Source of the DNA: an uncultured archaeon
Lineage (GTDB): Archaea; Asgardarchaeota; Lokiarchaeia; Sigyniarchaeales; SOKP01
Length of the DNA: 64,000 nt
NCBI GenBank assembly: GCA_964583985.1
Contig: CAZOYD010000001.1
Location: 99,532-163,531, forward strand
Direction of reading: 5' to 3'
Positions 10,718 through 57,450 of the stretch are shown in pieces. The notes under the pieces were generated by a model. The model did not search any database and was not told the origin of the DNA. It worked only from the letters and a program-made list of their open reading frames with translations. Numbering within the stretch: the first letter of the stretch is position 1; each line of letters opens with the position of its first letter. The position numbers were made by a program, and so were the translations under genes.

Positions 10718-10820
10718 TGGGCCAGGAGAGGTTCGAACTCCCGATATCCACGGTGTAAGCGTGGCGTCCTAATCAATCAAGAGATAATCTTCAGATTTAT
10801 AGCCACTAGACCACTGGCCC
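10718..10820 (-). tRNA. tRNA-Val(TAC) with ~30-nt intron in the D-loop (~10770-10799)
   Basis: GGGCCAG/CTGGCCC acceptor stem, CCACG-CTTACAC-CGTGG anticodon arm, TTCGAAC T-loop; 103 nt reduces to about 73 nt after removing the D-loop insert. Confidence 0.92.
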
Positions 10821-10839
10821 CTTTTATTTAACATAAAAG

Positions 10840-27614: not shown

Positions 27615-28304
27615 TCATATAAAATCGGTAAATTTTTTCGAGTATAATTCTTCGCGAATTATTTTTTTCGTTGTTTCCCATGAATTTCTCGCAATAGGGG
27701 GAGCTTTCTTATGCGTTCTAACCCAGTCACGAAGGAAAGTAGTACTCCGCAAGTCTGATGGATACCCTGATCCAAAATCTCCATATTTATTCTTTAGTTC
27801 TTCAATGATTCTATCTCTCTTATCTTTAGCAATTATTGAACTTGCTGACACGATTGGATATGAATCATCGGCCTTATGTTTAGAAATGATTTTTTTTGGC
27901 GAATAATTTAGCAATTTAGCAATTGAACGCCCAAATCGATCTTCTTTAACATCAGCAGCGTCAATATATACAAAATCTGGTTTTAAGTGATTTATTATTT
28001 CAGCCATTTTTAATTCTTCAAGGTGATTTAATGAAATTCTAAGAGAAAGTCTTTCATCAATTTCTTTCGGTGATACAATCACGTTTTGATAAGAATAGCA
28101 TATTGATTTTATTTTTATAGATAATTCGCTTCTTTTTCTCATTGTTAATTTCTTCGAATCCTTCACTCCCAAACGTGAAAGTAAATTGATATTTTCTTCG
28201 AGAAAGCAAACACCACAAATTACCATTGGGCCTAGAACGGGTCCTGTCAACATATAATTCGATATGAATTATATTCTACCAGCCTCATCTAATCCACAGA
28301 TCAA
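27615..28304 (-). CDS. rnhB: Ribonuclease HII, interrupted by a 30-nt intron (exon 1 28304-28276, exon 2 28245-27615)
   Basis: TTG-ICGLDEAG(R) + insert + GPVLGPMV; GVKDSKKL, KAD..YPIVSASSIIAK, GSGYPSD; C-terminal PIP-like KKFTDFI. Confidence 0.93.
28246..28275 (-). other. Putative BHB-type mRNA intron in rnhB
   Basis: A-ATATAATTC-ATATC-GAATTATAT-GTTG-AC: 9-bp hairpin and in-frame TAA; exact removal restores GGT AGA GGA CCC (GRGP). Confidence 0.85.
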
Positions 28305-28305
28305 T

Positions 28306-29313
28306 TTAGAGGTTATTTGCTGTTCCTTTGACGAGTTCGATAAATTCATCTTCGTTATCTATATTTTCTAAATCTCTAACTTTTACAATTGGTATGACGT
28401 TATTCTTAGTAGTATCAGATACGTTAATGTCATTGTTTATAATTAAAAGACTTTTTTTTTGAAACAGATTTGTAAATATTTTCAAGCAATTTAAATTGAT
28501 TTCAGAAATTTTTTTCTGTTCTTCAGAGATCCCAGAAAAGATAGGATAGATATTGACTTGTTTTTCAGAAGATGAATAAATTGAAAATTTGAACGGGATG
28601 GGTCCCTTACTATACCAGTATGTTGACATTCCAATATCCTCAATTACGTCATTGATATGAGCTTCAAAAGGATTTAAATCTTTTTCTTCCCCAATAGTTG
28701 ATTCTTGAAATTTGAATTTTATTTTCCAACTAAAAGGGTCCATTCTTTTTAGGATCATATTATCGTGTAATGTTTCAAGAATTTTTAAAGCAATACTTTC
28801 CGATGGTCTCATGCTGTCATTTTCATAAGCACATACGGTTCTTTTCGTAACTCCCAACTTTTCAGAGAGTTCTTTTCTTGAAATTGATTCTGATTCTCGT
28901 TTAAATTTCATTAATTGCCCATCCAAGAAGATAATGCCCCCTCCTCGCCTTGCTAAGATGTAGGGATAGTCATCATGTTCGATTATTTTTTGAAATGTAT
29001 TCATTGAAATAAAGGGTAATCCATATCGCATATAGACGGAATTATCCTCTAATTGTTGATACCTATTTCTAAGTCCAATCAATAATGGTTTTGATTTGAG
29101 TAATAATGATAGTGATTTAATGTCATTTACTAATTCAATATTAAGATTATCGATATTTGGAAATATTTTAACACTAAAAATAGAGTCTTTTTTTTTTGCT
29201 AGTAAATCAAAACAAAATTTATTCTTCTTATCGTTAAAATTATCAAGCAAAAAAGTCTCAAAATTAGCTTTTAGTAATATGGTATTAATTTTTTCAATAA
29301 TTTCACTAATCAT
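28306..29313 (-). CDS. Archaeal HTH transcriptional regulator (COG1395-like)
   Basis: CFDLLAKK, NIDNL, ARRGG, ISRKELSEKLGVTKRTVCAYE HTH. Confidence 0.85.
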   Translation of the reverse strand: MISEIIEKINTILLKANFETFLLDNFNDKKNKFCFDLLAKKKDSIFSVKIFPNIDNLNIELVNDIKSLSLLLKSKPLLIGLRNRYQQLEDNSVYMRYGLPFISMNTFQKIIEHDDYPYILARRGGGIIFLDGQLMKFKRESESISRKELSEKLGVTKRTVCAYENDSMRPSESIALKILETLHDNMILKRMDPFSWKIKFKFQESTIGEEKDLNPFEAHINDVIEDIGMSTYWYSKGPIPFKFSIYSSSEKQVNIYPIFSGISEEQKKISEINLNCLKIFTNLFQKKSLLIINNDINVSDTTKNNVIPIVKVRDLENIDNEDEFIELVKGTANNL

Positions 29314-55971: not shown

Positions 55972-57450
55972 ATGAATGTGAATAAAATTGCTAGTAATGT
56001 TTATGAAATTCCCCCTACTACCTTAATGGCGCGTGTGGAAGGAACGATAAGAAAATTTGAGATGAGTGTTCCAGTTCACATATATGCTAATGAGTATATC
56101 ATGGAAAGGATTAAACAAGATAAAACTCTTGATCAAATAAGCAATGTAGCTTGTTTACATGGTATTCAAAAACATGCTATTGCTTTATCTGACGCTCATC
56201 AAGGTTATGGTTTTTGCATAGGTGGAGTTGCAGGGACCAATGCTGAAGACGGTATGATATCTCCGGGAGGCGTTGGGTATGATATAAATTGTGGTGTTCG
56301 ATTACTACGAACGAATTTAATGATGAAAGATGTTAAAAAAAAAATTCCAACATTATTAGACACAATTTTTAAGAACATTCCTTCAGGTTTGGGGTCAAAA
56401 GGCAAATTAAACATTACTTTTTCAGATTTAGATGATGTCCTAAATAATGGATTAAAATGGGCACTTGATAAAGGTTATGCATTAGAAGAGGATATAAAAC
56501 ATTGTGAGGAAAATGGTTTCCTAAAAGAAGCGAATGCAGATTTAGTTTCAGAGAAAGCGAAACAAAGAGGAATAAAACAACTAGGATCCTTAGGAAGTGG
56601 GAATCATTTTTTAGAAATTCAAAAAGTAGACCAGATCTACAACAAAGAAGTAGCGAATAAATTAGGAATTTTTGAAGAGAATCAAGTCACGGTGATGGTT
56701 CATACCGGTTCGAGAGCTTTAGGTCATCAAGTATGTACCGATTCGTTGAGAACTATAGAAAAAGCCATGAAAAAATACAAGATTGAGGTTCCAGATAGAG
56801 AACTTGCTTGTGTACCTGCTAATACACCAGAAGCTGAAGATTATTTAACCCAAATGGCCTGTGCTGCAAATTTTGGGTTTAATAATAGGCAATTAATTAC
56901 ACATTGGTTAAGAGAATCGTTTCAATCCCATTTCAAACAGAGTGCAGAGGATTTAGATTTCACGCTTATATATGGAGTGGCTCATAATATTCTTAAAATA
57001 GAAGAACATGAAGTAGATGGCAAGAGGATGCTATTAAATGTACATAGGAAGGGAGCCACACGTGCTTTTCCTCCTGGTCATCCAGATTTACCCTCAGATT
57101 ATAAATATATTGGGCAGCCCGCATTAATCCCAGGTACCATGGGTTCGGCTTCATATCTTTGTGTTGGTAGACCAAAAGCAATGGATTTCTCATTTGGTTC
57201 AACAGCACATGGATCAGGTCGAGTGATGTCGAGATCCAAAGCGAAACGTACATACCTTCCTAATATCAGACAATTAACAGATAGTCTTGGAAATAAAGGA
57301 ATTTCGATAAGAGCGGCTTCAAATGAAGTAGTTGCCGAAGAAGCTCCGGGAGCTTATAAAGATATTGATCAAGTTGTCCAAGTTAGTCATGATCTCGGAA
57401 TTATTGAAAAAATCGTTCGTTTAGTACCAGTAGGAGTTGTTAAAGGATAA
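55972..57450 (+). CDS. rtcB: tRNA-splicing RNA ligase RtcB
   Basis: DAHQGYG, GYDINCG, GSGNHF, HTGSR, HRKGATR, HGSGR, EEAP.AYK. Confidence 0.98.
   Translation: MNVNKIASNVYEIPPTTLMARVEGTIRKFEMSVPVHIYANEYIMERIKQDKTLDQISNVACLHGIQKHAIALSDAHQGYGFCIGGVAGTNAEDGMISPGGVGYDINCGVRLLRTNLMMKDVKKKIPTLLDTIFKNIPSGLGSKGKLNITFSDLDDVLNNGLKWALDKGYALEEDIKHCEENGFLKEANADLVSEKAKQRGIKQLGSLGSGNHFLEIQKVDQIYNKEVANKLGIFEENQVTVMVHTGSRALGHQVCTDSLRTIEKAMKKYKIEVPDRELACVPANTPEAEDYLTQMACAANFGFNNRQLITHWLRESFQSHFKQSAEDLDFTLIYGVAHNILKIEEHEVDGKRMLLNVHRKGATRAFPPGHPDLPSDYKYIGQPALIPGTMGSASYLCVGRPKAMDFSFGSTAHGSGRVMSRSKAKRTYLPNIRQLTDSLGNKGISIRAASNEVVAEEAPGAYKDIDQVVQVSHDLGIIEKIVRLVPVGVVKG

What the first reader, a model, noticed from the sequence alone, without database searches (positions are those of the whole stretch)
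28246..28304. Probable BHB-type mRNA intron splitting the catalytic motif of RNase HII
Seen: the minus strand reads TTG ATC TGT GGA TTA GAT GAG GCT GGT AG|A ATATAATTC ATATC GAATTATAT GTTG AC|A GGA CCC GTT CTA GGC CCA ATG. The 30-nt insert holds an in-frame TAA and a perfect 9-bp hairpin. It has bulge-helix-bulge geometry: 3-nt bulge AG|A, 4-bp central helix UGGU/GUUG (all G-U wobble, the weak point), 3-nt bulge AC|A. Cutting after the second bulge base on each side restores DEAGRGPVLGPM exactly. The rest of the gene is intact, including the PIP-like tail. The ORF-track product from ATG 28253 lacks the catalytic Asp/Glu. Known: archaeal tRNA endonuclease plus RtcB splice BHB introns, and the well-known mRNA example is crenarchaeal cbf5. 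Inference: a spliced protein-coding intron in an Asgard DNA-repair gene that makes RNase HII depend on the tRNA splicing machinery and is invisible to gene callers.
Basis: partly seen in the sequence, partly recalled or inferred. Interest (0 to 1): 0.95.

Follow-up and report, generated by a model that had tools for sequence, protein, structure and literature searches.

The report
tRNA-type intron splits Asgard RNase HII
The only RNase HII (DNA-repair) gene of this Asgard archaeon is broken inside its catalytic motif by a 30-base insert shaped like the introns archaea cut out of tRNAs, so its messenger RNA very probably has to be spliced, which the papers I could search document for the coding part of only one other archaeal gene (cbf5).

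Summary
Observation confirmed; interpretation supported, but no spliced RNA was seen. The insert is window 28275-28246 (minus strand), 30 nt, phase 2 of the Arg codon in DEAGR|GP. An insert sits at this site in 80 of 133 other genomes of the family and in Hadarchaeota, Woesearchaeota, Micrarchaeota and Nanoarchaeota records (25-37 nt, often frameshifting). Across 56 distinct copies only the cut after the second bulge base restores Arg/Lys every time. Stem and central helix covary. dN/dS of carriers equals that of intronless genes. The genome has one rnhB, an (alpha-beta)2-type EndA with the relaxed-substrate loop, and RtcB. A motif-free comparison found six more such inserts in four other genes, including Rpo1N. 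Gains or losses between sister lineages mostly came with short patches of changed flanking codons. This scan found the same rnhB intron earlier in other genomes. Class: new member of the cbf5-type kind, part of a multi-gene system not found in the papers searched.

The parts
28276..28349 (-). rnhB exon 1 from ATG 28349 (alternative start TTG 28304); encodes the CGLDEAG motif and the first two bases of the Arg codon; overlaps the 3' end of the upstream gene
28278..28281 (-). exon strand of the 4-bp central helix (UGGU)
28246..28275 (-). 30-nt BHB-type intron; cuts after the second base of each 3-nt bulge
28252..28274 (-). intron hairpin h': 9 bp (28274-28266 with 28260-28252), 5-nt loop
28269..28271 (-). 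in-frame TAA that ends the unspliced frame
28251..28253 (-). intron-internal in-frame ATG used by gene callers (212-aa product without the DEAG motif)
28248..28251 (-). intron strand of the central helix (GUUG)
27615..28245 (-). rnhB exon 2 (PF01351), with the YIDAAD and HKADD acidic motifs intact and a PIP-like tail
28306..29313 (-). upstream HTH-domain gene (PDDEXK-HTH in relatives); same neighbour in carriers and non-carriers of the family, probably co-transcribed
55972..57450 (+). RtcB RNA ligase gene (trans-acting; single match in the genome)

Best explanation
A tRNA-type (relaxed bulge-helix-bulge, HBh') intron in the rnhB messenger. Shown from sequence: the insert, its site, its fold potential, its conservation and the genes for the machinery. 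Inferred: the transcript folds the 9-bp intron hairpin and the 4-bp exon-intron helix; the heterotetrameric (alpha-beta)2 EndA, whose specific loop tolerates relaxed motifs, cuts after the second base of each bulge; RtcB joins the exons, rebuilding the Arg codon of DEAGR|GP; active RNase HII is then translated. Unspliced RNA stops two codons into the insert. The intron looks old in this family (homologous 30-mers in 8 genera, none in 26 genomes of the other six families) and has been lost or regained repeatedly, mostly through short DNA patches around the junction. Unrelated inserts at the same site in other archaeal phyla suggest a recurrent insertion site. It is most likely a tolerated passenger and one of roughly 15-25 such introns in this genome (extrapolated from six others found).
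For: Same-site insert in 80/133 family genomes, 0 control hits, and in Hadarchaeota, Hodarchaeaceae-, Woese-, Micr- and Nanoarchaeota-labelled records, 25-37 nt. Register: the phase-2 cut gives R or K in 56/56 distinct copies; one base later gives S or N in 3; one base earlier gives T or I in 19. Covariation: 89.9% of cells paired, 10 of 14 pairs with compensatory changes, slid controls 29-38%; central helix 129/140 paired against a mean of 106.6 and a maximum of 120 in 10,000 exon-intron swaps. In the 10 Hadarchaeota-like, Micrarchaeota, Woesearchaeota and unassigned copies L051, L054, L055, L060-L062, L069, L071, L072, L078 the central helix has pair probability above 0.9. dN/dS 0.10-0.27 in carriers, 0.09-0.24 in intronless pairs. 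Only rnhB in a 100%-complete genome. Two EndA paralogues; the catalytic one best matches the PDB 3p1z/3ajv enzyme (Aeropyrum pernix, own knowledge) and keeps the K-P-R of the specific loop. RtcB present. Motif-free census: 6 of 8 well-defined disruptive inserts fit the 3+3 geometry, against 0-2 of 8 for control geometries and 0 of 4 open in-frame inserts; they include Rpo1N, which the cell cannot lose.
Against: This copy is the only one of 56 with four G-U pairs in the central helix, and ViennaRNA gives that helix a probability near 0 at 37 and 15 C, as for most copies in the family. The exon-exon helix is one pair. Related genomes are not independent, so shuffle counts are not probabilities.
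Confidence: 0.9

Rival explanations
1. A real intron family, but this copy is poorly spliced or decaying because its central helix has drifted to four wobble pairs; most rnhB mRNA stays unspliced and the cell leans on RNase HI and other repair.
For: Only all-G-U helix among 56 copies; predicted probability near 0. RNase HI is present. rnhB deletion strains exist in Haloferax and Thermococcus (PMC12639248).
Against: Both changes from the nearest relatives (U-A to U-G, C-G to U-G) keep pairing. dN/dS against those relatives is 0.10-0.12. Most family copies also have near-zero predicted helix probability yet persist in 80 genomes.
Confidence: 0.05
2. Ribosomal bypassing or stop readthrough skips the insert without RNA cutting (as in T4 gene 60).
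For: A stop codon and a hairpin follow the take-off codon; the family length is nearly always 30 nt.
Against: Take-off and landing codons do not match (AGA against ACA here; AAA, ATA, ACG or AAG elsewhere). Readthrough would put 10 residues in the active site and cannot fix the frameshifting copies. Neither explains the covarying exon-intron helix or the register that needs a cut inside the codon.
Confidence: 0.02
3. Pseudogene, or a catalytically dead 212-aa protein from the intron-internal ATG is the real product.
For: An in-frame ATG open into exon 2 occurs in 21 of 44 in-frame copies; gene callers use it.
Against: Absent in the other 23. Exon 1 keeps the C-G-[LIV]-D-E-A-G-[RK] motif in all ten congeneric carriers that were found by exon 2 alone. 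Selection is unchanged. No other rnhB.
Confidence: 0.02
4. Assembly artefact, or a DNA element excised from the chromosome rather than from RNA.
For: Raw reads could not be examined.
Against: Identical insert on an independent contig; 81 genomes; no second copy in the genome (best other match 22/30); no target duplication beyond one base.
Confidence: 0.01

Closest known systems
cbf5 pre-mRNA intron of Desulfurococcales and Sulfolobales (Watanabe 2002; Yoshinari 2006; Yokobori 2009, PMC2738675)
   Same: Short intron in a coding sequence, at a catalytic motif; unconventional BHB cut between bulge bases 2 and 3; hetero-oligomeric EndA; ancestral presence with lineage-specific losses; confuses gene prediction.
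   Different: Different gene and phylum (Asgard, Promethearchaeota). The same site is occupied by unrelated inserts in other phyla, and at least four more genes of the genome carry such inserts. cbf5 splicing is shown by cDNA and in vitro cleavage; this one is not.
BHB intron in the 5' UTR of Haloferax volcanii HVO_1309 (Schwarz 2020, PMC7714728)
   Same: EndA-processed intron in an mRNA.
   Different: That one is outside the reading frame, 46 nt, and verified in vivo and in vitro; this one interrupts the reading frame.
Non-canonical tRNA introns of Asgard archaea (bioRxiv 10.64898/2026.10.13.758758)
   Same: Same lineage group, BHB boundaries, repeated gains, (alpha-beta)2 EndA as a permissive background. 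A tRNA-Val in this window has a 30-nt D-loop insert.
   Different: That paper treats tRNA genes only; 'mRNA' and 'cbf5' do not occur in its text.
Eukaryotic non-spliceosomal HAC1/XBP1 splicing (own knowledge)
   Same: Endonuclease cut plus tRNA-ligase joining turns a dead reading frame into a working protein.
   Different: Uses Ire1 on two stem-loops and is stress-regulated; no regulation is shown here.

Membership tests
EndA-spliced BHB mRNA intron (cbf5 type) | Intervening sequence absent from orthologues at the exact site; removal restores a conserved frame | tested here: met
EndA-spliced BHB mRNA intron (cbf5 type) | Junction falls after the second base of two 3-nt bulges | tested here: met
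   56/56 R or K at this register; neighbouring registers fail in 3 and 19 copies
EndA-spliced BHB mRNA intron (cbf5 type) | 4-bp exon-intron central helix, conserved across the family | tested here: met
   129/140 paired, compensatory changes
EndA-spliced BHB mRNA intron (cbf5 type) | Central helix actually forms in this copy | tested here: inconclusive
   all pairs allowed but all G-U; predicted probability near 0 without protein
EndA-spliced BHB mRNA intron (cbf5 type) | Intron-side outer helix h' | tested here: met
   9 bp; 8 of 9 pairs with compensatory changes
Strict hBHBh' motif | Exon-exon outer helix h of two or more pairs | tested here: not met
   one invariant C-G pair then a mismatch; hence relaxed HBh'. 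Most cbf5 introns are also called unconventional (PMC2738675)
EndA-spliced BHB mRNA intron (cbf5 type) | Host encodes a hetero-oligomeric EndA with a relaxed-substrate loop, and RtcB | tested here: met
   (by sequence only)
EndA-spliced BHB mRNA intron (cbf5 type) | Spliced mRNA detected; cleavage by EndA | not testable with these tools
Group I or group II intron | Ribozyme core matching Rfam models | tested here: not met
   30 nt; Rfam finds only two tRNAs in the window
Programmed translational bypass (T4 gene 60 type) | Matched take-off and landing codons | tested here: not met
   bulge tables
Homing-endonuclease intron or endonuclease-plus-mini-intron cassette | Endonuclease ORF within or beside the intron | tested here: not met
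   none in the insert; neighbours in the family are HTH, fibrillarin and Nop5 genes. For other phyla only the top 25 of 96 Pfam families were shown, so not excluded there
Pseudogene | Relaxed selection, further lesions | tested here: not met
   dN/dS 0.10-0.27; later acidic motifs intact

The most novel reading that the evidence does not exclude
This Asgard family routinely splices protein-coding mRNAs with its tRNA endonuclease: some 15-25 genes per genome, RNA polymerase included, carry 28-35-nt relaxed-BHB introns that come and go by short DNA patches, and the rnhB catalytic codon is a site filled independently in several archaeal phyla. That would make endonuclease-type mRNA splicing a system in the closest prokaryotic relatives of eukaryotes rather than a one-gene oddity. 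(A bolder add-on, that the weak G-U helix makes retention a regulated switch to a dead isoform, I put near 0.08.)
Probability: 0.7. Interest if true: 0.85.

Novelty: new member of a known kind. Interest (0 to 1): 0.72.

Why it matters
The papers I could search confirm endonuclease splicing inside an archaeal coding sequence only for cbf5, plus one 5' UTR case (PMC2738675, PMC7714728); no paper on rnhB or Asgard mRNA introns came up. If spliced, Asgard archaea have introns in protein genes, removed by the homologue of eukaryotic TSEN and RtcB, which bears on how introns arose and spread before eukaryotes. It is directly testable with one junction read or one in vitro cleavage. It also means many database proteins are mis-annotated: 65 of 120 close RNase HII homologues lack their catalytic N-terminus.

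Tried and rejected
Metagenome scan allowing both joined and unjoined forms: four hits, all unspliced. Viral contigs: no rnhB relative and no insert. De novo BHB-plus-ORF scan of the genome: no excess over five control geometries, rejected as evidence. Intact Logan proteins nested among carriers (P0104, P0105) turned out to be distinct intronless alleles with changed junction codons, not spliced copies. L179 (P0115) is intronless with carrier-type flanks; library type unknown, left open. No second copy of the intron in the genome. ARAGORN's intron calls were unreliable and not used for length statistics. The Pro-to-Ser change after the junction adds an A-U pair to the exon helix and is seen only in carriers, but it needs only 1-2 events on the tree, so it is no test. 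No paper was found for the catalytic residue numbering; it rests on my own knowledge.

Full report
OBSERVATION. On the minus strand the RNase HII motif DEAGR is followed by 30 extra bases (28275-28246) and then GPVLGPM. The insert has an in-frame TAA at 28271-28269 and a 9-bp hairpin. Removing it gives an open frame of 234 aa from ATG 28349 or 219 aa from TTG 28304. The ATG is present in all four GTDB genomes of the closest clade, the TTG in three. Exon 2 matches PF01351 and solved archaeal RNase HII chains from their residue 11 onward, so the called 212-aa product lacks the first strand with the two N-terminal acidic catalytic residues (numbering from my own knowledge).

IS IT MORE THAN CHANCE? 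The fold alone is not. A scan for the 3+3 bulge geometry finds about 20,900 positions in this genome, and the number that also join two reading frames (374) is no higher than for five wrong geometries (350-401). The window segment folds no better than shuffles (z = -0.64). The evidence is comparative. Ten of 33 congeneric loci examined, found with exon 2 alone, carry a 30-nt insert at this exact site; the rest read DEAGRGP without it. A pattern search of the class finds it in 80 of 133 other genomes of the family, in 8 genera, in none of 26 genomes of six other families, with no control hits (a miss can also be incompleteness or pattern mismatch). A scan of all GTDB species finds inserts of 25-37 nt at the same site in records labelled Hadarchaeota, Hodarchaeaceae, Woesearchaeota, Micrarchaeota and Nanoarchaeota. 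An independent metagenome contig carries the identical insert. Assembly error is excluded for practical purposes.

ANATOMY. In the focal copy the junction is ambiguous by one base. Homologues fix it: cutting after the second base of each bulge gives Arg or Lys in 56 of 56 distinct copies; one base later gives Ser or Asn in three; one base earlier gives Thr or Ile in 19. That is the EndA rule (PMC2738675). On 24 distinct 30-nt copies, 89.9% of cells pair, 10 of 14 pairs show changes on both sides, and slid registers pair only 29-38%. Over 35 copies of all lengths the central helix pairs in 129 of 140 cells, against 106.6 on average and 120 at most when exons and introns are swapped. Relatedness inflates such counts, but the partners track each other across phyla (UGGU/GUUG, UGGC/GUUA, GGGU/GCCC, CGGC/GCCG, UGGU/ACCA). 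Two weaknesses: the exon-exon helix is one C-G pair, so the motif is the relaxed HBh' form; and the focal copy is the only one with four G-U pairs, with predicted helix probability near 0, as in most family copies, whereas ten copies from distant lineages exceed 0.9. All 44 in-frame copies contain a stop, against 54% expected from shuffles; most share one ancestral stop, so this is only suggestive.

IS THE GENE ALIVE? It is the only rnhB in a genome rated 100% complete. dN/dS in exon 2 is 0.10-0.27 between carriers and 0.09-0.24 between intronless genes. Exon 1 keeps its motif in the carriers found without using it. RNase HI is also present, and rnhB can be deleted in Haloferax and Thermococcus (PMC12639248), so the gene is useful rather than essential.

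MACHINERY. Two EndA paralogues: one with the catalytic Tyr, His and Lys, one without the His (residue roles from my own knowledge). The first best matches PDB 3p1z/3ajv and aligns over the specific loop with its K-P-R, which the literature ties to cutting relaxed substrates (PMC12397907). RtcB lies in the window at 55972-57450. A tRNA-Val at about 10718-10821 has a 30-nt D-loop insert that ARAGORN and Rfam missed, so the cell must already process non-canonical introns.

NOT ALONE. I compared 1.55 Mb of a relative (G017) with the genome without using the motif. Besides rnhB, six frame-breaking inserts of 29-35 nt stood out in well-conserved stretches: Rpo1N (C2, 31 nt), one thiolase (30 nt), a second thiolase (35 and 31 nt) and an SCP2 gene (30 and 29 nt, the last irregular). 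Six of eight well-defined disruptive inserts fit the 3+3 geometry, against 0-2 for control geometries and 0 of 4 open in-frame inserts. The sample covers a third or so of the genes, so 15-25 per genome is a rough extrapolation. Earlier notes of this scan had pointed at Rpo1N and the thiolases; the test here was independent of the motif.

HISTORY. Carriers are scattered on the RNase HII tree: 8 changes, at least 3 forced by strongly supported branches, with DNA-confirmed rows and the junction region left out; 17 and 5 when truncated database proteins count as carriers. Family introns are mostly homologous (63-78% identical among six clades, 39-67% for two more), which fits an old intron with repeated loss, though lateral re-gain is not excluded. 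Carrier and intronless sisters differ in a short patch: synonymous identity over codons -7 to +12 is 5/17 against 121/147 elsewhere for one pair, and lower than the rest in all six pairs (four with p below 0.01), while carrier-carrier pairs show no drop (two of ten intronless pairs also show a drop). So most changes of state came with a swap of about 50 bases, not a clean deletion. One intronless contig (L179) keeps carrier-type flanks and is either a clean recent loss or a spliced RNA. No endonuclease gene is beside rnhB in the family; a free-standing LAGLIDADG gene lies near the SCP2 gene on C66.

MECHANISM. Shown: insert, register, covariation, selection, enzymes encoded. Inferred: folding on the transcript, two cuts by EndA, joining by RtcB, translation of active enzyme; about 0.9. 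Rivals: poorly spliced copy (0.05), ribosomal bypass (0.02), dead protein or pseudogene (0.02), artefact or DNA excision (0.01).

WHAT IS MISSING. RNA.

KNOWN AND NEW. It works like, and meets every testable feature of, the cbf5-type intron, apart from the strict outer helix. Six literature searches found only cbf5 and the Haloferax UTR case for mRNAs, and a 2026 preprint on Asgard tRNA introns that does not mention mRNA; subscription journals are mostly not covered. This scan has reported the same rnhB intron in at least eight other genomes; one note claims a joined RNA contig, which I could not check and do not count. Verdict: real, very probably spliced, a new member of a known kind whose interest lies in the multi-gene, multi-phylum pattern. 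Interest 0.72.

Noticed in passing
G000 C2:24787 minus (locus L218): Rpo1N (RNA polymerase largest subunit) has a 31-nt frameshifting insert in GHFGH|IELARP with a 4/4 central helix; an essential gene, so the best control for splicing.
   Followed up: partly
G000 C2:124178 plus (L217) and C2:138115, 138064 minus (L216): Two thiolase-family genes carry three inserts of 30, 35 and 31 nt with BHB geometry; the last two are 18 bases apart.
   Followed up: partly
G000 C66:14382 and 14276 minus; C66:16370-17242 plus (L215): An SCP2 gene has two hairpin inserts (29 nt irregular, 30 nt regular); a free-standing 291-codon LAGLIDADG frame lies about 1.7 kb away, after a 385-codon frame with no Pfam match.
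   Followed up: partly
window 10718-10821 minus: tRNA-Val(TAC) with a 30-nt insert in the D-loop, missed by ARAGORN and Rfam; same length as the rnhB intron.
   Followed up: partly
window 13096-13196 plus: tRNA with an 18-nt insert in the anticodon loop.
   Followed up: no
L089, L090, L091, L190, L194-L209 junction: Many carriers have Ser for Pro two codons after the junction, which adds an A-U pair to the exon-exon helix; never seen in 55 intact database proteins, but only 1-2 events on the tree.
   Followed up: partly
L179:924-1589 (Logan SRR26538805): Intronless rnhB whose eight junction codons equal those of carrier L191 while the rest is diverged: recent clean loss, or a spliced RNA contig.
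   Followed up: partly
L174, L178 junction: Intronless sisters of a carrier clade (89% identical in exon 2) have six consecutive synonymous changes across the junction, including a CGN Arg codon not seen in the other family loci tabulated; looks like an imported patch.
   Followed up: partly
L092:1990-2430: A 146-aa acidic, Cys-containing ORF with no Pfam match sits between the HTH gene and rnhB in one carrier lineage.
   Followed up: no
window 28306-28349 minus: The probable rnhB start overlaps the last 44 bases of the upstream gene in another frame; a similar overlap is open in most congeners.
   Followed up: no
G000 C78:12612-13124 minus: Two LAGLIDADG matches inside a 1180-codon open frame, probably an intein-bearing gene.
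   Followed up: no
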